From a virus (Duplodnaviria; Caudoviricetes): 54,324 bases of DNA. Made by a program: the position numbers and the translations under genes. This document shows positions 20,602 through 53,051 of the stretch, piece after piece. The notes beneath the pieces are model-generated. The model did not search any database. It was not told where the DNA came from and worked only from the letters and a program-made list of their open reading frames with translations. Location: the IMG/VR virus record IMGVR_UViG_3300037486_000437, positions 1-54,324 of that record. One strand, 5' to 3'. Each line of letters opens with the position of its first letter. Within the stretch, counting starts at the first letter, position 1.

Positions 20602-20871
20602 TCATGGTTGCCTCCGGGCTGGCAGTTGCAGCGGTTGTGGCTCGGCAACGACGTGCACGTACACGGTGGGTAGTCGGTGCAGCGTGGGGTCTGGCGGACG
20701 TTGTGCACGCTGCACCAACGCCACCAATAGGAGGCTGACGGGCACGCTGGCCGCCACGCCCACCGCCACGCCTAGCACAACCGCCATATCATCGACCGTC
20801 AACGTGTTACCAAGCAGCAGCGCCAGCGCGCAGCCGCAGCCGAAGCCAAATGCCATTATGCTGGTCTTCAT
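20602..20871 (-). CDS. Two-TM membrane protein
   Basis: MKTSIMAFG..., 'VLGVAVGVAASVPVSLLLV'; coupled to the ATPase gene. Confidence 0.55.
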   Translation of the reverse strand: MKTSIMAFGFGCGCALALLLGNTLTVDDMAVVLGVAVGVAASVPVSLLLVALVQRAQRPPDPTLHRLPTVYVHVVAEPQPLQLPARRQP

Positions 20872-24256: not shown

Positions 24257-24302
24257 CCGGCCTAACTTGTATTTATGCGGAATCCTTCCGCCTAACACGC
24301 CC
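24257..24302 (-). mobile_element. attI-like recombination site, copy 2
   Basis: Minus strand ...ATTCCGCATAAA-TACAA-GTTAGGC; near-identical to 46152-46197. Confidence 0.6.
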
Positions 24303-24410
24303 CACGGGCGGCGATTGCTGTGATAGGCCGTCCCTGCCTACACCGGGATCGCTTGAGAACGGTTGCGGTGCAGGCAGAGCGGCTTTTAGCAAAGCGGGTT
24401 CTGCAGCCCG

Positions 24411-43165: not shown

Positions 43166-43667
43166 CGGCCAGCTCCCGGAAATTGCTCACCACGCTCGAG
43201 CTCGGATACAGCCCCGTGTAATCGTAGCGGTATTTGAACAGCGGCCAGATCCGGCTATACCCGTATTGCGCATCCCACGCCGGCTCGGTGTCGTGGATCA
43301 CGATCAGATCGGCCAGATAACGCAGCCGGGCGATCTCCACCGGCCGGCGCCGATTCGGGCTATGATCGACGAACGCCAGGCCCCAGTGATACTCAGTCAG
43401 ATCCACCGCGTCCCACGCTTCGCACTTGCGGATGTGATGATACTCGCTCTGCCAGCGTTGCGCCCGCTCGCACCAGCCACCCCGGCTCTCATACGAATAC
43501 ACGTGCCGCTGGCTGACCGTCGCCAGCCAGTGCAGCAGCAGCGTCGAAAAGTAGCCCGTGCCCAGCTCCAGCACCGGCCCCTGGCTTTTGTCGAAACAGC
43601 GCGTCAGCAGCGGGATATGGCTCGCCACCATCACGCCATCGGTCACATGCTCAGCGGGGTCTGCCAC
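43155..43667 (-). CDS. Class I SAM-dependent (glycan) methyltransferase
   Basis: VLELGTGYFST, AFVDH, IVIHDT; GGAGG RBS. Confidence 0.75.
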   Translation of the reverse strand: MADPAEHVTDGVMVASHIPLLTRCFDKSQGPVLELGTGYFSTLLLHWLATVSQRHVYSYESRGGWCERAQRWQSEYHHIRKCEAWDAVDLTEYHWGLAFVDHSPNRRRPVEIARLRYLADLIVIHDTEPAWDAQYGYSRIWPLFKYRYDYTGLYPSSSVVSNFRELADVR

Positions 43668-44347
43668 AATGCCTCCATCTGGGCCGCCGTGCCCCAATAC
43701 GGAATCTCGGTCGCCTGAAACGCCCCGAGCTGCTTGCGGTTGCCGGTATACTGGTAGCCGATGGCCGCCTCGTGAAACACCACCACATGCGGCTCCGGCG
43801 CCTCGAACGCGACCAGCCGCCGCGGTGTCACGCCCAGGCGCTGCTCGTGCCGCCCCACCTCGCTCCAGTGCCCCAGGTTGATCTGCGCAGCGTCCGGGTA
43901 TTTGGCGAAACGCTCCTCCAGCGCCGCCTGCAGCAGCGCCGTCGGCGCAATGCCGCCCGTGGTTGGCCACTTGACCGCCGGATGGTTGAAGCACGCCGGC
44001 CACCACGTGAACCAGGCCCACTTGTGCATGTCGTAGCCGATGGCGTCGGCCGGCGGCCGCCAGCAGGTGAAGTGGCTCGGCGGATACAGGATGTCATCCT
44101 CCGCCAGCGCCACGTATGGCGTGCGCACCGCCCGCACGCCGATCAACTGCTGCCGATAGATGTTGATGTACTGCTGCCCGATCTCGCCGACGCAGATGTT
44201 CTCGCCGAAGCCCGGCAGCGGCTTCTGTGACACGCTCACCAGCGGCAGATCGCCAATGGCCCCCAAGAGCTTCTGGCGCACCAGCGCCCCGAACGGCTCT
44301 CGGATCACGTTGGCCGTGTAGTAAAGCACCGTGAGATCAGGCGTCAT
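43643..44347 (-). CDS. GT-A fold glycosyltransferase
   Basis: VLYYTAN, ALAEDDILYPPSHF; resembles the second domain of 40729-42390. Confidence 0.75.
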   Translation of the reverse strand: MTPDLTVLYYTANVIREPFGALVRQKLLGAIGDLPLVSVSQKPLPGFGENICVGEIGQQYINIYRQQLIGVRAVRTPYVALAEDDILYPPSHFTCWRPPADAIGYDMHKWAWFTWWPACFNHPAVKWPTTGGIAPTALLQAALEERFAKYPDAAQINLGHWSEVGRHEQRLGVTPRRLVAFEAPEPHVVVFHEAAIGYQYTGNRKQLGAFQATEIPYWGTAAQMEALWQTPLSM

Positions 44348-44361
44348 CTACCCATTTCTCC

Positions 44362-44481
44362 ATCTAACGTCTGAAATAAGCTGCCCGTCACACTTCCAGC
44401 AATACGGGCTGCGGCCCATCCGGGGAATCAACTTCGCTACGGGCTGCCCCTGTTCGGGTCAGCTTCATTTCTTGGTTATCC
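44362..44481 (-). mobile_element. attC: attC site A (120 bp)
   Basis: Minus strand R'' GGATAAC-5 nt-L'' AATGAAGC ... L' GCTTATT-6 nt-R' GTTAGAT; two extrahelical bases. Confidence 0.85.
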
Positions 44482-45212
44482 GTCAGAGGAGGTTGGAGCC
44501 GAGCCTTCCGGCACCGTTCCTCAGCAATCTCGAAGTAATCCCGCCTGAGTTCGATCCCCGTCCCGCTGCGTCCCGTCTTGATGCAGGCGACCAGCGTCGT
44601 GCCGCTGCCCATTGTGTTGTCAAGCACGGCGTCGCCTTCGTTCGTGTACGTGCGAAGCAGGTATTCCAGCAGGGCGACCGGCTTCTGTGTTGGATGTTCG
44701 GGAATCATGACCGTCGAAAACGGAACTATTGAAGTCGGGTAGTAGTCGGCGTTTTCGGTGGTTTGACGATCCGCAAACTTTCCGTAAACTTGGGCGGGGC
44801 CAGTCCTGGCCCCGCCCCGGCTGTGCAGCGTGCCCCGTTTCATCACCGGGTTGTAGGTGTGTCCATTGGGTGCGAACACGCAAATATCCTCATGCTTCTT
44901 CAATGGCTTACGCTTGCAATCCAGATGGCCCGTGGCCCGTGACTTCTCCCAAACCCAAACATACTTGAACCACGCCAGGTTACTGCATACCAGTAGGCTG
45001 GTGAACGGCTGCGAGCCGAACAGCACGATAGCGCCCCTGGGCTTGATCAGCCGCTTGTACTCCGCCCATAGCGGCTCGAATGGGATGACCACATCCCAGG
45101 AGCACGCCGTCGTGCCGTAGGGCAAGTCAGCACAGATCATGTCAAAGCTCGCGCTCGGCAAGGTTGGCATGACTTGCAGACAATTCCCATGAATCAGTGT
45201 CTCGTTACTCAC
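44388..45212 (-). CDS. Beta-class N6-A/N4-C DNA methyltransferase (cassette 1)
   Basis: ADLPY, HPTQKP, VLDNTMGSGTT; GTG 45212 chosen (alternative start 45254). Confidence 0.9.
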   Translation of the reverse strand: MSNETLIHGNCLQVMPTLPSASFDMICADLPYGTTACSWDVVIPFEPLWAEYKRLIKPRGAIVLFGSQPFTSLLVCSNLAWFKYVWVWEKSRATGHLDCKRKPLKKHEDICVFAPNGHTYNPVMKRGTLHSRGGARTGPAQVYGKFADRQTTENADYYPTSIVPFSTVMIPEHPTQKPVALLEYLLRTYTNEGDAVLDNTMGSGTTLVACIKTGRSGTGIELRRDYFEIAEERCRKARLQPPLTDNQEMKLTRTGAARSEVDSPDGPQPVLLEV

Positions 45213-45224
45213 GTTGCCTCTGCC

Positions 45225-45344
45225 GGATAACGGTTGAAATAAGCTGCCCGTCACCCAACCGGCAAGACGAACAGCGGCCCATCCGGGGAGTCAACTTCGC
45301 TGCGAGAGAACCCACTTCGGGTCAGCTTCATTTCGTTGTTAGAT
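45225..45344 (-). mobile_element. attC: attC site B (120 bp)
   Basis: Minus strand R'' ATCTAAC-5 nt-AATGAAGC ... GCTTATT-6 nt-R' GTTATCC; arms identical to attC A. Confidence 0.85.
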
Positions 45345-46141
45345 CGGAGCGGCAATTGAAGCGCAGTTCCAGCAATACGACCCCTGGCATTCTCGAAGAA
45401 CCTGCGATTGATTTCGCACCCGATGAAATCCCTGCCAGTGCGAACGGCTGCAACTCCGGTAGACCCCGACCCCATGAAACAATCCAGCACAACGGGAATC
45501 CTGGCGCCATCTTTCAGGCAAGTGAACATCTGGATAAGACGCTGCGGTATCTCGACCGGGAACGCTGCCGGATGCCCGTTCTGCCGGGCGGGAACGTTCC
45601 ACCAAACGTCTTTGGTCTCATCCAGGAAGGGCACGTCCTTCGTGCCCCGCCTGCCCGTGCCGTTGTCGTAGTAGTATCTGCTTTTGCTGTGAAGTAGGAT
45701 CATTTCACAGGTTGGGCGAACATAGATATTGTTATCAGACCCCATGGCGTAGGACGTTGCTATCGGCCCGGTATCCTCTTTGCCCTTTACCCAGACAATC
45801 GCTTCTCGTGGCAAGAATCCAAGTCGCTCACACATAAGCTCGACCCGAACGGCGATCTTTTCAACCCGTCTCCCGATCTGTTCGATGGAGTCACGGCGTA
45901 ACCGAACCTCCTTCGGAACATTGATGGCAATGACCCCGCCGTCTCGCAGAAGGCGATAGCTCAGCGTCAAGAATCGCTCCATCTCGGCGTAGTAGGTCGG
46001 CCAGTCGGTGTCATCGGAAAGCTCTCCGTAGTCCATGCCAACGTTGTAGCGCGGCGATGTTACGATCAGGTCGACGCTGGCTTCTGGCAGGCGTGCCATG
46101 ACATCGAAAGCATCCTCGTTGTACAGTGTCACGTTACCCAC
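45251..46141 (-). CDS. Beta-class (probably N4-C) DNA methyltransferase (cassette 2)
   Basis: TSPRY (SPPY variant), HPAAFP, VLDCFMGSGSTG. Confidence 0.88.
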   Translation of the reverse strand: MGNVTLYNEDAFDVMARLPEASVDLIVTSPRYNVGMDYGELSDDTDWPTYYAEMERFLTLSYRLLRDGGVIAINVPKEVRLRRDSIEQIGRRVEKIAVRVELMCERLGFLPREAIVWVKGKEDTGPIATSYAMGSDNNIYVRPTCEMILLHSKSRYYYDNGTGRRGTKDVPFLDETKDVWWNVPARQNGHPAAFPVEIPQRLIQMFTCLKDGARIPVVLDCFMGSGSTGVAAVRTGRDFIGCEINRRFFENARGRIAGTALQLPLRSNNEMKLTRSGFSRSEVDSPDGPLFVLPVG

Positions 46142-46151
46142 GATCTAAGCT

Positions 46152-46197
46152 CCGGTCTAACTTGTATTTATGCGGAATGGATTCCGCATAAACGCCC
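46152..46197 (-). mobile_element. attI-like site heading the cassette array
   Basis: Minus strand GCATAAA-TACAA-GTTAGAC (compare attI1 CCCTAAA-ACAAA-GTTAGGC) plus a 12-bp inverted repeat. Confidence 0.7.
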
Positions 46198-46216
46198 GTA
46201 GAGCGTCAAAAGCGGA

Positions 46217-47077
46217 TCAGCCATACAGCCTCCGCTCCCAGTCGTCAGGCCAGCCCGGTATCGGCCAGAAGCGCTCGATGAACTTCTCGAAGAACACCCG
46301 CCGCTCGTGCACCCACAGATTGTAGGCGTAGGCGTTGCAGGCGTGCACCGACGCATTGCTCATGTAGTAGCCCCGCCCGTACTTGGGCCCCTTGTGCAGG
46401 TGGGCATACCAGGTCAACTTGTTGGTCAGCACGCGCCCGCCGTGATACCAGGTGCTCAGCCCGATCTCCTCCGCCTCCTGGCCCCACCCGCTATACCCCT
46501 CGATCTGCATGAAGCCGCAACGCGCAAACCAGCTTTTCGCCATGAACCAGCAGCTTCCCTGGAAGTGCATCGTCTCGTCAATTGGGATCTCGGCCCGTTC
46601 GAGCGTGCGGGCGTCCCAGCGGAAGCCGTGCAGCCCCAGCGGATTGAACTTCAACGGAAACATGGTGTGCTCGTAGTCGATCGGCGGCCGGTCGTCGCTC
46701 TGCGTCTGCAGGCACCAGTTCTCGGCGTCCAGGCGATGCCGGCGGGGGATCATCACGCTGTCCGGCTCGTAGTTGTCCGCCAGCACCACGTCGAAGCCCT
46801 CCGCCACCAGGCAGTGCGCATCCAGCGCCATGATGTACGGCCCATCGGCCAGTTCGACCGCCCAATTGATGGCGTGGCGCTTCTGGGTGGTGCTCTGCGC
46901 CGGCAGGTGCAGATAGGTCAGCCGGGGATCGTCGATGACCTCCGCCGCCGGCAGCTCGTAGCCGTCGAGCATGGCGTACACGGCGATGTCGCCGCGCGCC
47001 TTGGCCAGCACATCGCGCAGTGTCGCCGTCAAAAACTGTTCGTTGCGACTGGGTACGATCACCGTCACCTGGCTCAT
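46217..47077 (-). CDS. Glycosyltransferase, ppGalNAc-T (GT27)-like GT-A
   Basis: VIVPSRNE, ALDAHC, WGQEAEEIGLSTWYHGG..WYAHLHK. Confidence 0.85.
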   Translation of the reverse strand: MSQVTVIVPSRNEQFLTATLRDVLAKARGDIAVYAMLDGYELPAAEVIDDPRLTYLHLPAQSTTQKRHAINWAVELADGPYIMALDAHCLVAEGFDVVLADNYEPDSVMIPRRHRLDAENWCLQTQSDDRPPIDYEHTMFPLKFNPLGLHGFRWDARTLERAEIPIDETMHFQGSCWFMAKSWFARCGFMQIEGYSGWGQEAEEIGLSTWYHGGRVLTNKLTWYAHLHKGPKYGRGYYMSNASVHACNAYAYNLWVHERRVFFEKFIERFWPIPGWPDDWERRLYG

Positions 47078-47078
47078 C

Positions 47079-50000
47079 TCACGCTCCAATTCTTATTTCG
47101 TAGGCGAGGGCAGATTTTAGCAATTCAAACTGCGCCGGGTCCAACGGCACGCCGCCGCCGGCTTGCCCCGTGAACTCCACCACCACCCGCCGCTCGCTCG
47201 TCACCGTGTAGCTGCCGCCCAGCAGCCCCGCCAGCCCCGGCTCCACCGCCAGCGCCAACTGGCGCGCTGCCGCCTGCACCTCGGCGGTCGCCCCCAACAG
47301 GCCCAGCGCCATGCCGTGCCCGATGGCGCTGCCCAGTCCCTCGCCCAGGCTCTCGGCATCCCCGCCGCCGCCCAGACCGCCGGCAATCGACTGCATGACC
47401 GCCGCCACATAATCCAGGAAGTCCTGGAACTGCGCCATGCTGGGCAGCCCGTGCTCGCCCAACGCCGTGAACAGATTCAGCGCCCGCTCCAGCACGCCGA
47501 ACACCTGTTCGAGCGCCGTCCCAAACTCCGCCGCCGTCGGGAGCCAACTTACGAGATCCTCCTGCGCCACGTATTCCCGCCAGGCGTGCAGCGTGCCCGA
47601 GATGCGTTCGATCAGATCCGCCATGCGAATCTTGAAGGTCAGCGCCGAGCTGGCCGCGCCGTCGGTGAGCTGCTTGACCACGCCCAACGCCGTGCCCAGC
47701 ATCCCGAACACCCCGCCGGCCGCCGTCGCAAACGCTGTAGTCGCCGCGGTAGCGGCCTGGACACCGGCGCCCGCCGCATAGGTCTGGATCAGGTTATACG
47801 CGTAGGTCACGGAGTCCAGGAAGCCCTGGATGCGGCTGTTGAGCACCGGGATATAGCTCTGCAGATCCTTGAAGACGCTGACCGCATTCGCCAGCCCGCC
47901 GAACAGCGCGCCCGCCGCCGTGCCGAAGAAGCCGGCCGCCTTGGCCGCCTCCTCGGTCAGATTGCCCGCCGCCCACGTCGCCAACTGCCCCACAAGCGCC
48001 TCAACATCGGCCATGAAGCGGCTCAGCGCGTCCTCGGTCGGTCCGACATACTCTACTACGCCGCGCAAGGCGGTCAGCGCACTGCCCAGCCCGTTGAACA
48101 AATGCGCCGTGGCTGCCCCGAAATCCTGCGCCGCTTTGACCAGCGCCTCGGTCAGGTTGCCCGCCGCCCAGGTCGCCAGCTGGCCCACCAGCCGGCCCAC
48201 ATCGGCCACGAAGGCATCGACCGCCAGCGCCGCCGGCGCCACATAATCTCCGAGCGCCGTCAACGCCTCGACGCCTGACTTGACGATGCCCAGCGCCGGC
48301 CCCGCCGCGGTCGCCAGCTTGGCTGCCGCCGCCAGCAGCTCGTCGGTGATCAGCGCGGAGGCCGTGCCGAGCAAATTCACCAGCCGCTTGATGAACGTCA
48401 CCAACTGCTGCAGGCTCTTGTCCACCGCATTGAGGCTGGCCAGCGGCACATAATCCTTGATTGCCACCAGCGCGTCGACGCCTGACTTGACGATGCCCAG
48501 CGCCGACCCCGCCGCCGCCAGCTTTTGCGCCGCGGTCAGCACGTCCTCGGTGATCATCGCGGAGGCCGTGCCGAGCAAATTCACCAGCCGCTTGATGAAC
48601 GTCACCAACTGTTGCAGGCTCACATCGACTGCGTTGAGGCTGGGCAGTGGCACGTATTCACGTACTGCGCCGATGGCGTCCAGCGCCGTTTTTACCAGCG
48701 CCAACGCCGGCCCGGCTGCATCCACCAGCCGCTTGGCCCCCGCCAGCACATCCAGCGCCAACGTGGCTCCGCATTGGCCCAACCAGTCGACGAGCACCCT
48801 GAGAAAACTCCCGATCTGCATGGTGTTGAGATGCAGGATGCCAAACGCCTGCGGACTCAGCCTAACATAAGCGCCGAGCGTCTCGATCATCCTTAGCGTC
48901 AACCAGATCACGTCCAACGCTGGCCCGGCAGCTTCCACCAACCGTTGCGCTGCCGCCAGCACACCCACCTTGAACGCGGCGCTGGCCTGCCCCAGCCAGT
49001 TGATGAGCAACGATAGGAAGTTGGCAATCTGGTTGGTGTTAAGATACAAAAGCAGAAACGCCTGCGGACTCAGTCGGACATACGCGCCTATGTCACCGAT
49101 CGCATCAATGGCCGTTTTGACCAGCGCCAACGCTGGCCCGACCGCTTCCACCAACCGTTGCGCAGCTTCGAGTAAACTCGCTGCCAATCTGGCCCCGTTC
49201 TGCCCCAGCCAGTTGATGAGCAACGATATGAAGTTGGCAATCTGGTTGGTGTTGAGATACAAAAGCAGAAACGCCTGCGGACTCAGTCGGACATACGCGC
49301 CTATGTCACCGATCGCATCCAGGGCGTCGCCGACGATCGCCAGCACCGGCCCCACGCTCTCCGCAAGCTGGATGGCTGCCGCGCGCAGTTCATCATCCAC
49401 CAACGCGGCCGCTTCGCCCACTACCGTTACCAGTTGAGCAATAAACGCGCCCACCCGCCGCAACTGCGCAATGTCAGGAATTACAAAGCCGCGCAGCAGG
49501 CGCTCGCTCAGGCTCAGCGCGCCGTCGATCGTCTCTAGCAGCGTCGGCACGGCCGCCAAGCCTTCGGCCAGCAGCCCCAGCACCCGCGCTAAATCCAGCG
49601 CATCCGTCAGTGCGGCGGGATCCAGCGTCCGATTCAGCTCCGCCAGCTTGCCGATGACCACTTTGAGCGCCTCGATCACGCGCGCGGCCCCCGCCTGCGT
49701 TTTGGCCAGCGCCGTGTCGTAGGCCGCCAGCGCCGTTACAGCGTCGAGCACCGGGACCAGGCTTTCGAGCATCTCGCCCAGCGGGGCCAGCACCGCCTTC
49801 GCACCCCCGAAGCCGTGCGCCGGATCCGCCGCCCAGCCGGATAGCTCGGCGAAGCCGCGCACGATGGCCTTAACGCTTTCGAGCAGCGGCGCAATTTTCG
49901 CCGCCAGGTTGGCCCGGGGTACAAATTCTGCCAGGGCATCCAGCCCCTCCAGGATGCCCTGCAGATCGGTCAGCATGTCGCTCAGTGGCTCCAGCACCGC

Positions 50001-53000
50001 CCTGGCACTGCCAAAGCCACTATTTGGCGCGGCCGCCCAGCCGGCCAGCGCCGCAAACTCCGCGATGATGGCCTGGATCGTATTGCTGATGCTGCCGAGC
50101 ACCGGCACGGCGCCCGCCGTCAGACCCAGCGCGAAGCCGGCCATCATGTCCTGGCCGATCTGCGCGAACACCTTCGACGGCGAGCTGATGCCCAAGATCT
50201 TGCGCGCCCACACCGGCAAGGCATCAAAAAGCTCTTGCGCCCGCCGCAGCAGATGGTCCTTCATGTCGATGATGCCCTGCGCCAGGCCGGCGATGATGTC
50301 GCGCCCGACGTTATAGAGCAGTTGCGTCGGGTTGGGGATCGCGTCTACGACCTGCTTTGCCACCGCCTTGATCGCCTTCTCGACCTCGCGCAACTCGGCG
50401 GCGATGCCATCGACAAAGCCCTTGATGGTATCCTGGCTGGCCTTGGTCAACTGCTTATCCCACGCCACGAGCTTGTCAACCTCGGCCATGACGCCGGTCC
50501 ACCAGTCGGCAATCGACTTGGCGGTCGCGGCTTTATTCTTATCGCGCTCCACCGCCCAGGCATCCAACATGCCCTGCCACCAGGTCTCCAGCGCCTTTGC
50601 CTGCGCCGCTTTGTTTTTGTCGCGCTCGACGGCCCACGCATCCAGGCCGTTCTGCCACATGGTTTGCAGCCGGGCCGCGGTCGCCTTGCCCCACTCGACG
50701 CTCTTTTTGTCGAACTCGCCCAGCACGGCCCACACCCAAACGCCGATCTGCTTGATCGTGTCGGCCGTCAACTGCTTGCCGCCCGTGTCCCACCAGGTCA
50801 CAAAGTTGTTCCACAGCTTGTCGCCGAGGCTCTTGAACTTGGCATCTGTGGTCACGGGCGAGGCCAACAGGGAGGTCAGCAGACTGCCCAGCCACGCAGC
50901 GATCTTGCCGATGGTATCGAGCGCCAACTGGCTGCCGCCGGTATCCCACCACTTGGCGAAGGTGCCCCACAGATCGCCGATGATCTTGCCCAGCAGGGCG
51001 ACCCAGGAGGGCAACTGCGCCGCCACGGTGCTGACCAGGTTGGCGATCCAACTGGCGATCTTGCCGATGGTATCGAGCACCAACTGCGCGCCGCCGGTAT
51101 CCCACCACGTTGCAAATACCTTCCAAAGCGCCCCAATGACATTGAGCAGCGTCTGCGACAGCGCCGGAAGCTGGGCGATCAGCGCCGTTACCAGCGTACC
51201 GATCCAACCCACGATCTTGCCGAGCACGTCGGTCGTCAACTGCGCGCCGCCCGTCTCCCACCACGCTGAGAACGCCGCCCACAGCCCGCCGATGGCGCTC
51301 TTGAGCTGCGCGATCCAGCCCGGCAGCGCCGTCCAGATCTGCCCGACCAACGCCACCAGCCACGCGCCGATCTGCCCCAACACGGTCGTCGCCAACGCCT
51401 GCCCGCTGGTCGCCCACCACGCCGTGATGCCGGCCCAAATGCGATTGATGGCGCCGCCGATCTGCGTCTGCCACGTCGGCCAGTTCGCCGTCACAAAGGC
51501 GCTCAAGTCGGTGAATGCCTGGCCGAGGTAGGCGATCAGCTTTTGCCCCACGGCCGGCCAGCCGCCGGTATCGAAAGCCGCCTTCAGCTCGTTGAACTTC
51601 TGCTGCACGCCCAACACCAGCGTGCCGATCGGCAGCACTGCCTCCGGTCCGAACGCTGAGCGGATCGCCAGCAGCAGCTCGCCGCGCTGGATGAAGCCGA
51701 TCACCTCCTGCGCCTGCGTGATGAACGTCGTCAGCGCCGTGCCGATGCCCTGCCCGAACGCGTGCACCCGCGCCAGGAATGCCGGGCTGCTGAACAAATC
51801 CACCATGCCGGTCGCCAGCGGCTTCAGCGCCTCGAAGACGCCCGTGAACAGCTCGCGCAGCCCGATCTTCTTGATGTCTTCCAGCGATGAGAGCAGCCCG
51901 GAGATGGTCTGCGTCTGCTTCTTGGCCGCGCCGCCGAAGTCGCTCTCCAGGCTCTCGACGATGGCCTTGATGGCCTTGTCGGCCGGGATCAGCCCCTGCT
52001 CGCGCATCCGCACGATTTCAGCCGTGCTCTTGCCGAACGCCTTGGCCAGGATCGCATCCACGTTGACGCCGACCTCGGTGAGCTGCATCACCTCCTGGCC
52101 GGCCAGCTTGCCGCGCGCCTGGATCTGCCCCAGCGCCAGGCTGATGCGCCTCATCGCCTCGCTGGTCTGCCCGCTGCCGGAAGCGTAGTCGATCATCGCC
52201 TGTGTCAGGCGCTTGGCGCTCACCACGTTGGCGTCCATGGAGTCGGCCACGAAGCCATAGCTCATGGCCATCCTGAAGGCCGCCGCCACGCCCTCCTGGT
52301 CGAAGGGACTGTTGATCGCCAGCAGCTCCGTCCAACGCACCAGCTCCTTGGCCTTGATAGCCGCCTCGCCCTGCACCTCCGCCAGCGTCTTGGTCAGTGT
52401 GGTGTTGGTCTGCGTGATGTCGACGACCTGGCCCTGCTTGCCGGCCAGCTTGGCGTATTCCGCCGTCGTCTCGCCCAGTTGCGCCCGCAGTTTCTCCATC
52501 TGCGCGGCGTGCGTCTTGACCGCCAGGCCCTCCTCGCCCCACTTGAGCGTCAGTTGGCGATGGCGTTCGGTCTCCTCTTGCAGCTTGGCCGCTTGCAGCT
52601 CCCGCTCGCGCCCCAGGTCGGCCAGCTTGGCCGTTTCCTGCTCGGTGAGCTGCACCCGCTGCTGGCCGATCTTGACCGTCTCGGTGACGGCGCTGGCGTT
52701 GCGCAGCTCGCGGGCGATCAGCGACTCCAGCGACATATTGAGCCGCTCGTAACTGCCGACCGCGCCCAGCGCCTCGCGCCCCAGGCTCACCACCGCCCCG
52801 GCGAGCTTCTCGATCCCCTGCACCAGCACGCCGCCGATGGCAAATTCTGCGATGCGCCCCAGGCTGCCCGTGATGTTGCCGATCGCGCCGCTCAGACCGG
52901 CGGTCGCGTTGCCCCAGTTGATGCCATGATACGCACCGGCTACTTTCTGCGCGTTGTCGTGCGCCGCACGCTCAACATCCCGCAGCCCGGTGTAGTAATC

Positions 53001-53051
53001 CATCGCATCCAGCCCGTAGCTGGCCATCAGTTTGGCGACTTCTAGGCTCAT
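47079..53051 (-). CDS. Tape measure protein
   Basis: 1990 aa; tape-measure N-terminal domain 'SPFD...ALGQIQARGKL..QE..QL.E.G', Trp-periodic repeats, 'LGISSPSKVF'. Confidence 0.93.
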   Translation of the reverse strand: MSLEVAKLMASYGLDAMDYYTGLRDVERAAHDNAQKVAGAYHGINWGNATAGLSGAIGNITGSLGRIAEFAIGGVLVQGIEKLAGAVVSLGREALGAVGSYERLNMSLESLIARELRNASAVTETVKIGQQRVQLTEQETAKLADLGRERELQAAKLQEETERHRQLTLKWGEEGLAVKTHAAQMEKLRAQLGETTAEYAKLAGKQGQVVDITQTNTTLTKTLAEVQGEAAIKAKELVRWTELLAINSPFDQEGVAAAFRMAMSYGFVADSMDANVVSAKRLTQAMIDYASGSGQTSEAMRRISLALGQIQARGKLAGQEVMQLTEVGVNVDAILAKAFGKSTAEIVRMREQGLIPADKAIKAIVESLESDFGGAAKKQTQTISGLLSSLEDIKKIGLRELFTGVFEALKPLATGMVDLFSSPAFLARVHAFGQGIGTALTTFITQAQEVIGFIQRGELLLAIRSAFGPEAVLPIGTLVLGVQQKFNELKAAFDTGGWPAVGQKLIAYLGQAFTDLSAFVTANWPTWQTQIGGAINRIWAGITAWWATSGQALATTVLGQIGAWLVALVGQIWTALPGWIAQLKSAIGGLWAAFSAWWETGGAQLTTDVLGKIVGWIGTLVTALIAQLPALSQTLLNVIGALWKVFATWWDTGGAQLVLDTIGKIASWIANLVSTVAAQLPSWVALLGKIIGDLWGTFAKWWDTGGSQLALDTIGKIAAWLGSLLTSLLASPVTTDAKFKSLGDKLWNNFVTWWDTGGKQLTADTIKQIGVWVWAVLGEFDKKSVEWGKATAARLQTMWQNGLDAWAVERDKNKAAQAKALETWWQGMLDAWAVERDKNKAATAKSIADWWTGVMAEVDKLVAWDKQLTKASQDTIKGFVDGIAAELREVEKAIKAVAKQVVDAIPNPTQLLYNVGRDIIAGLAQGIIDMKDHLLRRAQELFDALPVWARKILGISSPSKVFAQIGQDMMAGFALGLTAGAVPVLGSISNTIQAIIAEFAALAGWAAAPNSGFGSARAVLEPLSDMLTDLQGILEGLDALAEFVPRANLAAKIAPLLESVKAIVRGFAELSGWAADPAHGFGGAKAVLAPLGEMLESLVPVLDAVTALAAYDTALAKTQAGAARVIEALKVVIGKLAELNRTLDPAALTDALDLARVLGLLAEGLAAVPTLLETIDGALSLSERLLRGFVIPDIAQLRRVGAFIAQLVTVVGEAAALVDDELRAAAIQLAESVGPVLAIVGDALDAIGDIGAYVRLSPQAFLLLYLNTNQIANFISLLINWLGQNGARLAASLLEAAQRLVEAVGPALALVKTAIDAIGDIGAYVRLSPQAFLLLYLNTNQIANFLSLLINWLGQASAAFKVGVLAAAQRLVEAAGPALDVIWLTLRMIETLGAYVRLSPQAFGILHLNTMQIGSFLRVLVDWLGQCGATLALDVLAGAKRLVDAAGPALALVKTALDAIGAVREYVPLPSLNAVDVSLQQLVTFIKRLVNLLGTASAMITEDVLTAAQKLAAAGSALGIVKSGVDALVAIKDYVPLASLNAVDKSLQQLVTFIKRLVNLLGTASALITDELLAAAAKLATAAGPALGIVKSGVEALTALGDYVAPAALAVDAFVADVGRLVGQLATWAAGNLTEALVKAAQDFGAATAHLFNGLGSALTALRGVVEYVGPTEDALSRFMADVEALVGQLATWAAGNLTEEAAKAAGFFGTAAGALFGGLANAVSVFKDLQSYIPVLNSRIQGFLDSVTYAYNLIQTYAAGAGVQAATAATTAFATAAGGVFGMLGTALGVVKQLTDGAASSALTFKIRMADLIERISGTLHAWREYVAQEDLVSWLPTAAEFGTALEQVFGVLERALNLFTALGEHGLPSMAQFQDFLDYVAAVMQSIAGGLGGGGDAESLGEGLGSAIGHGMALGLLGATAEVQAAARQLALAVEPGLAGLLGGSYTVTSERRVVVEFTGQAGGGVPLDPAQFELLKSALAYEIRIGA

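What the first reader, a model, noticed from the sequence alone, without database searches (positions are those of the whole stretch)
44362..46197. Integrase-less integron (attI + two attC cassettes) inside a phage late operon
Seen (minus strand): attI-like GCATAAA-TACAA-G|TTAGAC, MTase 2, attC B, MTase 1, attC A. Both attCs are 120 bp with canonical R''-5-L''(8)...L'(7)-6-R' geometry and two extrahelical bases. Cassette 1 (44368-45230) begins G|TTATCC and its R'' GGATAAC is the exact complement. Cassette 2 (45231-46160) begins G|TTAGAC with R'' ATCTAAC (6/7 complementary). Removing both cassettes joins attI to TTAGATGGAGAAATGGGTAG-ATG, the RBS and start of the next GT gene. No tyrosine recombinase is encoded. 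Known: these are the hallmarks of IntI-mediated cassette insertion. Inference: the phage carries its own docking site and borrows a host IntI to capture cassettes, here probable anti-restriction methyltransferases.
Basis: partly seen in the sequence, partly recalled or inferred. Interest (0 to 1): 0.92.

Follow-up and report, generated by a model that had tools for sequence, protein, structure and literature searches.

The report
Integrase-less integron cassettes in a phage
A complete temperate phage genome carries, inside its tail-gene operon, a real integron docking site followed by two swappable DNA-methyltransferase gene cassettes but no integron integrase, a rare arrangement that has already been described for a few other phages.

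Summary
On the minus strand, a ~60-nt attI (46216-46155) is followed by two cassettes. Each holds a promoterless N6/N4 DNA methyltransferase gene and a 120-nt attC (45344-45225 and 44481-44362).

- **attC test:** a covariance model built from 38 attC sites of other metagenomic arrays gives exactly these two hits in the 54-kb genome (41 bits, E~1e-7; next best E 0.6).
- **attI test:** the hairpin belongs to a family seen 120 times in 119 metagenome contigs. In six or seven of them a divergent intI starts 135-620 nt away. attC sites are enriched downstream (42 against 1-6 in controls). In 31 of 42 the R'' box matches its own cassette's first bases, which marks G|TT crossover.
- **No IntI:** the phage encodes no tyrosine recombinase, only a serine integrase.
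- **Limit on the reading:** the whole 1.87-kb module, attI included, is missing from the two closest relatives and from a co-occurring strain. It has low GC and is bounded by CTGATC repeats, so it may have arrived as one piece.
- **Turnover:** a second attI (24330-24260) does show cassette differences at G|TT between this phage and a relative.

Phage CALINs with methyltransferase cassettes are published (Qi et al. 2023), and this scan has noted similar arrays on other DNA. I class it as a new member of a known kind.

The parts
46155..46216 (-). attI-type site. It holds an outer half-site (about 46216-46204), a small GC hairpin, and a perfect 12-nt inverted repeat (46192-46181 / 46178-46167). 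A 5-nt spacer then leads to the R box GTTAGAC, with the crossover G at 46161.
   Evidence: Sequence and hairpin. The same architecture occurs 120 times in 119 metagenome contigs. Some of those lie next to a divergent intI. attC sites are enriched downstream, and their R'' boxes match the start of their own cassette.
45231..46160 (-). Cassette 2 (930 nt): starts TTAGAC, carries its own ribosome-binding site, the MTase 2 ORF and attC B.
   Evidence: The same cassette start and gene (92% amino-acid identity) sit behind a different attI variant in metagenome contig L115. Identity begins exactly at G|TTAGAC.
45251..46141 (-). MTase 2 ORF (296 aa, GTG start). The N6_N4_Mtase domain covers residues 23-252. 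The last ~35 residues are read-through into attC B.
   Evidence: Pfam PF01555, E 1.2e-35; phrog_67. The tail is absent from 9 of 9 closest homologues aligned.
45225..45344 (-). attC B (120 nt): R'' ATCTAAC, L'' AATGAAGC, L' GCTTATT, R' GTTATCC.
   Evidence: Covariance model R1 gives 40.6 bits, E 1.8e-7, over the full model length. Consensus structure.
44368..45230 (-). Cassette 1 (863 nt): starts TTATCC, the exact complement of its own R'' GGATAAC. It carries the MTase 1 ORF and attC A.
44388..45212 (-). MTase 1 ORF (274 aa from the GTG at 45212, preceded by AGAGG). It holds an N6_N4_Mtase domain, and its C-terminal tail is encoded by attC A.
   Evidence: Pfam PF01555, E 3.4e-25; phrog_67. The tail is shared by 3 of 10 aligned homologues, frame-shifted in a fourth, and absent in the rest.
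44362..44481 (-). attC A (120 nt): R'' GGATAAC, L'' AATGAAGC, L' GCTTATT, R' GTTAGAT.
   Evidence: Model R1 gives 41.1 bits, E 1.4e-7. Single-strand fold z -2.7 and -2.9.
44341..44367 (-). 27 nt after the last G|TT (TTAGAT, a GGAG ribosome-binding site, then ATGACGC). It supplies a new ribosome-binding site and start codon, fused in frame to the downstream phage gene.
   Evidence: In relatives the downstream gene starts at an ATG that overlaps the stop of the upstream glycosyltransferase (GT) gene.
46215..46220 (-). Left copy of CTGATC, which contains the stop codon of the upstream GT gene. The right copy is at 44335-44340. Together they bound the 1874-nt module (46214-44341).
   Evidence: L002 has the uninterrupted ATGGCTGATCTCAC.
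44335..44340 (-). Right copy of CTGATC.
46217..47089 (-). Upstream family-2 GT gene (context). It follows the tape-measure gene (47079-53051).
   Evidence: Pfam GT2; tape measure by PHROGs.
43643..44347 (-). Downstream phage gene (234 aa, no Pfam family). It has homologues directly after the GT gene in more distant relatives, and is deleted in L001 and L002.
24260..24330 (-). Second copy of the attI, with crossover G at 24266 followed by TTAGGC. After it come a 35-nt conserved leader and a 76-aa ORF (24233-24003) with no attC.
   Evidence: No R1 hit lies nearby. The related phage G006 has two attC cassettes inserted at this G|TT.

Best explanation
This is a genuine fragment of the integron system: a CALIN (cluster of attC sites lacking an integron integrase) headed by its own attI. 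It sits between a glycosyltransferase (GT) gene and the next gene of the tail operon of a complete, temperate, siphovirus-type phage.

How it is built and read:
- Each cassette is a promoterless beta-class N6/N4 DNA MTase gene with its own ribosome-binding site and a 120-nt attC.
- The cassette order and the swapped R'/R'' boxes are the footprint of IntI-type recombination at G|TT.
- The genes are probably transcribed by read-through from the late operon. Their products would methylate progeny phage DNA against host restriction (inferred).

What is needed for further change: the phage has no IntI, so any further gain, loss or reshuffling needs an IntI supplied in trans by a host. This could happen during lysogeny or SOS induction (inferred).

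How it got here: at this locus the module (attI, two cassettes and the first 27 nt of what followed them in the donor) most likely arrived as a unit by illegitimate, microhomology-type recombination. The donor could be another array, possibly the phage's own second attI platform. That second platform shows that the lineage does exchange cassettes at an attI.
For: Shown here:
- **attC identity.** Geometry is. An independent covariance model gives two hits only, 41 bits, at exactly these coordinates. Six family members share the R-box and L-box stems, with AU-to-GC double changes at two pairs in 2 of 6.
- **The repeat is DNA, not a protein domain.** The MTase bodies are unrelated outside the last 100 aa. 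The tail is missing in 9 of 9 MTase 2 homologues. L115 has the same gene at 92% identity but a different attC body. One MTase 1 homologue carries the tail frame-shifted.
- **attI identity.** Sequence conservation stops at GTTAG, and identical left halves are joined to different right halves.
  - A divergent intI, either full length or running to the contig end, lies 135-620 nt away in L153, L200, L185, L166, L142, L103 and L113.
  - 42 attC-like sites lie downstream in the same orientation, against 6, 5 and 1 in the three control compartments.
  - R'' matches the start of its own cassette in 31 of 42, against 9 of 42 for the R' found in place.
- **No IntI.** TIGR02249 gives 0 candidates. tblastn with an IntI gives a best E of 0.38. 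The phage has a serine integrase.
- **Foreign module.** It is absent from 18 of 18 related loci. L001 and L002 have 93% GT identity and an uninterrupted junction. GC is 0.55-0.58 inside against 0.63-0.69 in the flanks.
- **Not a chimera.** Contigs of a second study (run X2) bridge both outer junctions.
- **Turnover at the second attI.**
- **Same attC family elsewhere.** It occurs in a metagenome-assembled genome (MAG) that encodes IntI on another contig (L025 in G001) and in another viral contig, L216.
- **Expression.** No promoter-like or terminator-like site on the coding strand was found in attI or either attC; the one terminator-like match (45850-45838) lies inside the MTase 2 ORF, and matches are no more frequent than in shuffles.
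Against: - No IntegronFinder or HattCI run was possible. My attC model was trained on sites chosen by my own rule-based scanner, and its E-values are rough.
- attC B does not fold better than shuffled sequence.
- No excision circle, empty-site allele or joint at any G|TT was seen, but only contigs were available, not reads.
- At this locus there is no cassette polymorphism among relatives, only presence or absence of the whole module.
- The host is unknown. The terminase search of 401 genomes of one phylum gave at most 36% identity over full length. So no IntI can be assigned to a host.
- Most copies of the attI family with long upstream sequence have no intI nearby. Adjacency to intI is the exception in this sample.
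- MTase activity, expression and anti-restriction function are inferred from family membership only.
Confidence: 0.8

Rival explanations
1. Passive cargo only. A piece of a bacterial array (attI, two cassettes and the start of a third) was captured once by illegitimate recombination. It is now a fixed pair of 'moron' genes, and the sites are never used in the phage.
For: - The whole module is absent from the closest relatives and from a co-occurring strain.
- It is bounded by CTGATC repeats.
- The left edge coincides with the outer edge of the attI, and the right edge lies 27 nt past the last G|TT.
- It forms a low-GC island.
- No joints were seen at G|TT.
Against: - The same phage has a second copy of the attI. 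At that site a relative differs by two cassettes inserted exactly at G|TT.
- Both attC sites and the attI are intact and score like sites in arrays that sit beside IntI.
- This rival overlaps with the best explanation on how the module arrived. It differs only on later activity.
Confidence: 0.35
2. The two MTases are paralogues from a tandem duplication. The 114-nt repeat is conserved because it encodes a shared C-terminal peptide.
For: - Both ORFs read through the repeat.
- The tails are similar at protein level.
- Three MTase 1 homologues share the tail.
Against: - The MTase bodies are not alignable outside the last ~100 aa.
- 9 of 9 MTase 2 homologues lack the tail.
- L115 has MTase 2 at 92% identity with another attC.
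- P0129 has the tail out of frame.
- The repeat continues past the stop codons to the G|TT boxes.
- The same element follows unrelated genes in L025, L128 and L216.
Confidence: 0.02
3. Assembly chimera: a bacterial integron contig was joined to a phage contig in the metagenome assembly.
For: The module has different GC, and repeats can mislead assemblers.
Against: - In run X1, contigs of depth about 95-118 run through the module at the same depth as the flanks.
- In run X2, from another study, contigs bridge 45790-46261 with no differences and 44268-44941 with one difference. These cover both outer junctions.
- The downstream gene is fused in frame to the module's start codon.
Confidence: 0.02
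4. The hairpins are phage regulatory elements, such as terminators or RNA-processing sites between inserted genes, and only resemble integron sites.
For: - attC and attI are hairpins.
- Qi et al. [quoted passage not shown]
Against: - Neither hairpin is followed by a T-run, and none scores as terminator-like.
- The match between R'' and the cassette start, adjacency to intI and the model scores are specific to integron recombination.
Confidence: 0.03

Closest known systems
CALINs (clusters of attC sites lacking an integron integrase) in phage genomes: Qi, Rajabal, Ghaly, Tetu and Gillings 2023, Front Microbiol, PMC9892861 (abstract and the whole of section 3 read; supplements closed)
   Same: - attC-bounded cassettes in phages that encode no IntI.
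- DNA MTases as cargo. Examples are the two MTases in the Polaribacter phage P12002L CALIN, and five MTases in all, including N6_N4_Mtase.
- An anti-restriction role and access to the cassette pool were proposed there.
- One prophage CALIN (Shewanella M16-3) has its own attI.
- Illegitimate recombination was proposed there as the route of entry.
   Different: - This is an uncultivated temperate phage with two attI-headed platforms.
- The attI belongs to an environmental family that I did not find described.
- A relative shows cassette gain or loss at the phage attI.
- The array is co-oriented with a tail operon and fused in frame to the next phage gene.
- No recombination assay exists for these sites. 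In the paper, 5 of 6 tested phage attC sites recombined with attI1 under IntI1.
Complete integrons (intI, attI, Pc promoter, attC cassettes) and bacterial CALINs: Cury et al. 2016, NAR, PMC4889954 (passages read)
   Same: - attI followed by co-oriented cassettes.
- R''/L''/L'/R' boxes and crossover at G|TT.
- CALINs are common, and most are not near an intI pseudogene.
   Different: - There is no intI and no Pc-like promoter in the module.
- The element lies in a virus.
- Cury et al. state that attI sequences are unknown for most integrons. Here an attI family can be recognised by sequence, and most of its copies are not beside intI.
Orphan phage DNA methyltransferases (phrog_67; PF01555 N6_N4_Mtase)
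   Same: Both cargo genes are full-length members of this family. In phages such enzymes protect DNA from host restriction. That is established knowledge, cited in Qi et al. 2023.
   Different: Here they are packaged as integron cassettes. The MTase 1 relatives P0122-P0124 keep the N- and C-terminal parts but differ in the central part.

Membership tests
attC recombination site | Terminal R'' (RYYYAAC) and R' (GTTRRRY) boxes, in that order on the gene strand at the 3' end of the cassette gene. | tested here: met
   GGATAAC...GTTAGAT and ATCTAAC...GTTATCC.
attC recombination site | L''/L' inner repeats with one extra base in L'', and unequal spacers (5 and 6 nt). | tested here: met
   AATGAAGC (8 nt) against GCTTATT (7 nt), with spacers of 5 and 6 nt. 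The bulge sits at alignment column 16 in 6 of 6 family members, as G or C.
attC recombination site | A single strand folds into a hairpin that pairs R''/R' and L''/L'. | tested here: met
   The consensus fold has 4 R-box pairs and 15 L-stem pairs kept in 6 of 6 or 5 of 6 members, with two pairs showing double changes. Caveat: the minimum-energy z-score is significant for A only.
attC recombination site | Scores with an attC covariance model. | tested here: met
   My own model R1 was built from 38 sites of other DNA, with the window's family left out. It gives 41.1 and 40.6 bits, against 12.6 for the next best hit. The IntegronFinder and HattCI models were not on hand.
attC recombination site | The cassette's first bases after G| are complementary to its own R'' box, not to the neighbouring one. 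| tested here: met
   Cassette 1 matches at 6 of 6 and cassette 2 at 5 of 6. In the wider family the figure is 31 of 42 for the cassette's own start, against 9 of 42 for the R' in place.
attC recombination site | Recombined by an integron integrase. | not testable with these tools
   This needs an attC x attI assay.
attI site | Lies at the head of the array, with the crossover at G|TT of an R box preceded by further integrase-type half-sites. | tested here: met
   Conservation ends at GTTAG, and upstream there are three half-sites of one motif in alternating orientation.
attI site | Lies beside a divergently transcribed intI. | tested here: not met
   This is not met in the window. It is met for family members L153, L200, L185, L166, L142, L103 and L113. 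Of 20 loci with at least 4.5 kb upstream, none had a full intI and two had N-terminal remnants.
Complete integron | Encodes an integron integrase (TIGR02249). | tested here: not met
   0 candidates in the complete genome. It is therefore not filed as a complete integron.
Complete integron | A Pc promoter upstream of the cassettes. | tested here: not met
   There is no sigma-70-like site on the minus strand between 46220 and 44340. This was a consensus scan only.
CALIN | At least two attC sites with no intI nearby. | tested here: met
N6_N4_Mtase (PF01555) | A full-length domain match above the curated cut-off. | tested here: met
   89.7 and 123.9 bits against a cut-off of 26.7, covering the profile at 2-221 and 1-219 of 221.

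The most novel reading that the evidence does not exclude
Some temperate phage lineages maintain attI 'docking platforms' without an integrase. Host IntI loads and unloads them in trans, plausibly when the SOS response induces both IntI and the prophage. The phage thereby samples the bacterial cassette pool for counter-defence genes, such as the MTases here and an RNA ligase in viral contig L216.

More broadly, this attI family exists mostly uncoupled from intI, behind housekeeping genes as well as in phages. Such attI-headed arrays would then be satellite platforms that rely on an integrase encoded elsewhere, not merely decayed integrons.
Probability: 0.35. Interest if true: 0.8.

Novelty: new member of a known kind. 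Interest (0 to 1): 0.55.

Why it matters
This is a clean natural example that integron sites work as a gene-exchange interface between bacteria and their viruses.

- Both the docking site and the cassettes are recognisable.
- The cargo is plausibly anti-restriction.
- A sister phage shows cassettes gained or lost at the same kind of site without any integrase of its own.

The analysis also yields a sequence-recognisable attI family for environmental integrons. Cury et al. 2016 state that attI is unknown for most integrons. With this family, three questions become testable:

- Do CALINs keep a usable attI?
- Are they served in trans by an integrase encoded elsewhere?
- How often do phages carry such platforms? 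By exact pattern I found 3 among 2.9 million viral contigs.

Tried and rejected
- **Rfam.** No match at gathering thresholds over the whole window.
- **Relatives of flanking genes.** Searches of viral contigs with the downstream gene and with the gene upstream of the second attI found no relatives.
- **attC L-box pattern.** It gave nothing in viral contigs. In genome contigs it gave 63 matches, of which only 17 have both flanking boxes. The other 46 look like chance matches, mostly in AT-rich genomes.
- **First attI pattern.** My first attI pattern for viral contigs was mis-spaced and found nothing. The corrected pattern found two contigs.
- **BLAST against GenBank phages.** The 6-kb region matched only parts of MTase genes, covering at most 7%. 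The 67-nt attI gave three matches at E 6, which are not meaningful.
- **Host identification.** The large terminase against 401 genomes of the phylum of the L025 genome gave 8 genomes at E <= 1e-30, with best full-length identity 36%. No host was assigned. One of those genomes (G159) is unpublished.
- **Run search and read laying.** Only Logan contigs were available. No joint at 46161, 45231 or 44368 and no circle junction was listed. This does not show absence, because contigs drop rare variants. One low-depth loose end at 45228 joins the end of attC B to other letters. It is a weak hint only, and may come from another organism's array.
- **IntI remnants.** tblastn for IntI remnants in the window gave a best E of 0.38.
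- **Literature.** Searching four 10-nt attI motif strings found no integron paper among the 15 papers listed of 139. That is weak evidence that the family is undescribed.
- **Closed sources.** The supplementary tables of Qi et al. 2023, which list all 17 phage CALINs, could not be read. Whether one of them has this attI family is unknown.
- **Unused tools.** I did not use structure prediction, complex prediction or the protein atlas. The proteins belong to a well-known family.
Full report
**What the window is.** The window is a complete viral record of 54,324 bp with direct terminal repeats. It encodes a large terminase, a portal protein and a serine integrase. A 1990-aa tape-measure protein lies just upstream of the region in question. 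The finding therefore lies in the tail (late) gene block of a temperate, siphovirus-type phage. On the minus strand the gene order is:
- tape measure;
- a family-2 glycosyltransferase (GT), 46217-47089;
- the module;
- a 234-aa gene, 43643-44347;
- further GT genes.

**The observation.**
- Two 120-nt elements end the two methyltransferase (MTase) genes, at 45344-45225 and 44481-44362.
- Each reads R''-5 nt-L''(8 nt)...L'(7 nt)-6 nt-R'.
- They are 82-84% identical to each other. The MTase proteins align only over their last ~100 residues.
- Cassette 1 begins TTATCC, the exact complement of its own R'' GGATAAC. Cassette 2 begins TTAGAC, where its R'' predicts TTAGAT.
- In place, each attC carries the R' of its neighbour. 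This is the expected result of recombination at G|TT.

**Are they attC sites?** Rfam has no such family and gave nothing, so I built my own tests.
- A rule-based scanner looks for the boxes, the spacers and a 12-pair stem with one bulge. It finds only these two sites at 11 of 12 pairs in the whole genome on both strands, plus one 10 of 12 hit at 20775.
- I then collected 38 attC sites from metagenomic arrays (see below), leaving out the one that resembles the window's family. I aligned them and built a covariance model.
The next best hit scores 12.6 bits, E 0.63.
- The same model finds the site next to the IntI gene of genome G001 at 50.7 bits. It also finds the sites in L025, L216 and the related phage G006.
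- Six members of the window's attC family (two in the window, two in L025, one each in L128 and L216) share the R-box and L-box stems. The bulged column holds G or C. Two adjacent pairs change from A-U to G-C in two members.
- As single-stranded DNA, attC A folds better than its shuffles (z about -2.8). attC B does not (z about -0.2). This is a point against, although the conserved stems form in both.

**DNA element or protein tail?** Both ORFs read through most of the repeat, so a shared C-terminal peptide had to be excluded.
- The closest MTase 2 homologues (62-68% identity for the nearest six, 49-53% for two more distant) stop about 35 residues earlier. The tail is absent from 9 of 9 aligned.
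- Metagenome contig L115 carries the same gene at 92% amino-acid identity. Nucleotide identity starts exactly at G|TTAGAC and ends just after R''. A different attC body follows.
- For MTase 1, 3 of 10 aligned homologues share the tail, one has it out of frame, and six lack it.
- The same element follows unrelated genes in L025, L128 and L216.
- The repeat is therefore a DNA site that the ORFs happen to run into.

**The 'attI-like' hairpin.** A degenerate pattern covering both copies and the copies in L025 and G006 was scanned over the metagenome collection.
- *Shared architecture.* Parts that the pattern did not specify are also conserved: an outer half-site, a small GC hairpin, and an inverted pair of half-sites. 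A 5-6 nt spacer and GTTAG follow (103 distinct sequences).
- *Sharp boundary.* Conservation ends at GTTAG. Identical left halves are joined to quite different right halves.
- *Next to intI in some contigs.* A divergently oriented integron-integrase gene starts 135-300 nt away in L153, L200, L185, L166, L142 and L103, and 623 nt away in L113. Six further loci keep only the first 42-57 codons.
- *attC sites follow it.* Same-orientation attC-like sites are enriched downstream: 42, against 6, 5 and 1 in the three control compartments. Of 98 loci with at least 600 nt downstream, 33 have one.
- *The crossover is at its G|TT.* In 31 of 42 such sites the three variable bases of R'' match the first bases of their own cassette, counted from the G of the hairpin element or of the previous attC. 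For the R' found in place the figure is 9 of 42.
The site is larger than described, about 46216-46155.
- Most copies are not beside intI. Of 20 loci with at least 4.5 kb upstream, none has a full intI. Of the 20 nearest upstream genes tested, 14 had Pfam families, none phage-structural; most are ordinary cellular genes such as gyrB, hemE/hemD, def, transporters and a sulfatase.

**No integrase in the phage.**
- The integron-integrase model finds no candidate in the window, although it rings on the Xer-type recombinases of all 14 control genomes.
- A direct tblastn with an IntI gives nothing better than E 0.38.
- The related records G006 and G007 likewise have no tyrosine recombinase.

**How the module relates to the phage backbone.** Eighteen related viral loci were found through the upstream GT, and none has an MTase at this position.
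- In more distant relatives the GT stop overlaps the start of the 234-aa gene.
- The two close relatives (93% GT identity) have lost that gene. L002 still shows the uninterrupted junction ATGGCTGATCTCAC.
- In the window the same words are split. CTGATC holds the GT stop. Then come 1874 nt (46214-44341), and then CTGATCTCACGG. The junction is ambiguous by up to 6 nt.
- The insert begins at the outer edge of the attI (compare L101 and L146).
- It ends 27 nt after the last G|TT. Those 27 nt supply a ribosome-binding site and an ATG, fused in frame to the phage gene.
- GC falls from 0.63-0.69 in the flanks to 0.55-0.58 inside.
- In run X1, which may be the source sample, an L002-like strain without the module co-occurs at about a tenth of the depth.
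- At this locus the polymorphism is therefore presence or absence of the whole module, not variation at G|TT. One-piece arrival by microhomology-type recombination is the simplest account.
- It is not an assembly artefact. Contigs of a second study (X2) bridge both outer junctions.

**Evidence that such platforms are used in phages.**
- The second attI (crossover G at 24266) follows a conserved gene and a non-coding stretch. The related phage G006 shares both at 70-75% identity.
- In the window it is followed directly by TTAGGC, a 35-nt leader and a 76-aa ORF. No attC follows.
- In G006 two complete cassettes lie between the attI's G and the same leader. Each ends in an attC of another family (39.7 and 37.5 bits) and each begins TTAGAC, matching its own R'' GTCTAAC.
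- This is the pattern left by insertions at an attI, or by excisions, in a lineage without an integrase of its own.
- Two further phage-like sequences carry the same attI with the window's attC family:
  - L025 is a 7.9-kb contig of an Acidobacteriota metagenome-assembled genome (MAG). DnaB-type helicase and HNH genes lie upstream. That genome encodes an IntI on another contig.
  - L216 is a 73-kb viral contig whose first cassette is an RNA ligase.
- By exact pattern, only G006's contig and L216's contig among 2.9 million viral contigs have this attI besides the window.
- IntI above the curated cut-off was found in 4 of 5 genomes that hold attC-like sites with the same L boxes. One of the four, G004, is unpublished.

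**Function (inferred).**
- Both cargo genes are full-length N6_N4 DNA MTases. Each has its own ribosome-binding site a few bases after the cassette start.
- No promoter-like or terminator-like site on the coding strand was found in attI or either attC; the one terminator-like match (45850-45838) lies inside the MTase 2 ORF, and matches are no more frequent than in shuffles. Read-through from the late operon is therefore the likely mode of expression.
- Protection of progeny DNA from restriction is the established role of orphan phage MTases, cited in Qi et al. 2023. It was not tested here.
- MTases are also the first cassette behind this attI in L106, L115, L128 and L207, and later cassettes in L191.

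**Comparison with what is known.**
- Qi et al. 2023 (PMC9892861; abstract and section 3 read, supplements closed) screened 10,705 phage genomes.
  - They found 3 complete integrons, 1 In0 element and 17 CALINs.
  - Five MTase cassettes were among the cargo.
  - One prophage CALIN had its own attI.
  - Five of six tested phage attC sites recombined with attI1 under IntI1.
  - They proposed both the anti-restriction benefit and illegitimate recombination as the route of entry.
- Cury et al. 2016 (PMC4889954; passages read) define CALINs. They state that attI is unknown for most integrons.
- This scan has also noted phage cassette arrays with MTases on other DNA: 34 notes in at least 30 genomes. 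The eight shown are phage arrays; four name Bacteroidota phages, and four describe a Xer-like recombinase.
- The present case is therefore a new member of a known, rare kind. What it adds:
  - a classical attI family that can be tied to IntI;
  - two platforms in one phage;
  - a relative that differs at G|TT.

**Verdict.** The structural reading is supported. Capture in place with a borrowed IntI is plausible but unproven at this locus. Interest is moderate.

Noticed in passing
window 24265-24231 (-); L025 1156-1120 (-); L088 905-865 (-); L115 after its attC: A ~35-nt cassette leader (TTAGGCCGGACTRCCGGYGAGGA..) follows G| in four different arrays. In each it precedes an unrelated ORF. It contains a short palindrome and the ribosome-binding site. 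Its role is unexplained.
   Followed up: partly
L115 (whole, 1112 nt) against window 46160-45225: The same MTase gene (92% amino-acid identity) carries a different attC body. Nucleotide identity ends right after the R'' box. This suggests attC exchange at or near R'', and not only at R'.
   Followed up: partly
L131, L167/L184, L102, L110, L119, L203 and others: Arrays headed by this attI but lacking an integrase sit directly downstream of, and co-oriented with, ordinary bacterial genes such as gyrB, hemE/hemD, def, transporters and a sulfatase. Most long contigs with this attI have no intI within several kb.
   Followed up: partly
L136, L176, L093, L178, L205, L150: Only the first 42-57 codons of intI remain next to the attI, although more upstream sequence is available. 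These look like recurrent 5' remnants of intI.
   Followed up: no
L196 (two matches, opposite strands, about 30 nt apart): Two copies of the attI face each other in inverted orientation on one contig.
   Followed up: no
L216 4704-5375 (-): In another viral contig, the first cassette behind the same attI encodes an RNA ligase (PF09414). It is followed by an attC very similar to the window's attC A.
   Followed up: partly
window 43643-46215; run X1: A related strain co-occurs at about one tenth of the depth. It lacks both the module and the 234-aa gene, with 33 other letters in their place, as in L002.
   Followed up: yes
window 45228; run X1: One low-depth contig joins the end of attC B (through GTTA) to 38 unrelated letters. 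It may be another cassette junction, or another organism's array.
   Followed up: no
proteins P0122-P0124 against window 44388-45212: These MTase 1 relatives are nearly identical to it in the first ~100 and last ~80 residues, but differ in the central part. This looks like swapping of the target-recognition region.
   Followed up: no
G006:C1:19833-20537 (-): The related phage has another N6_N4 MTase gene (31% identity to MTase 2) two genes upstream of its attI platform. It is not in a cassette.
   Followed up: no
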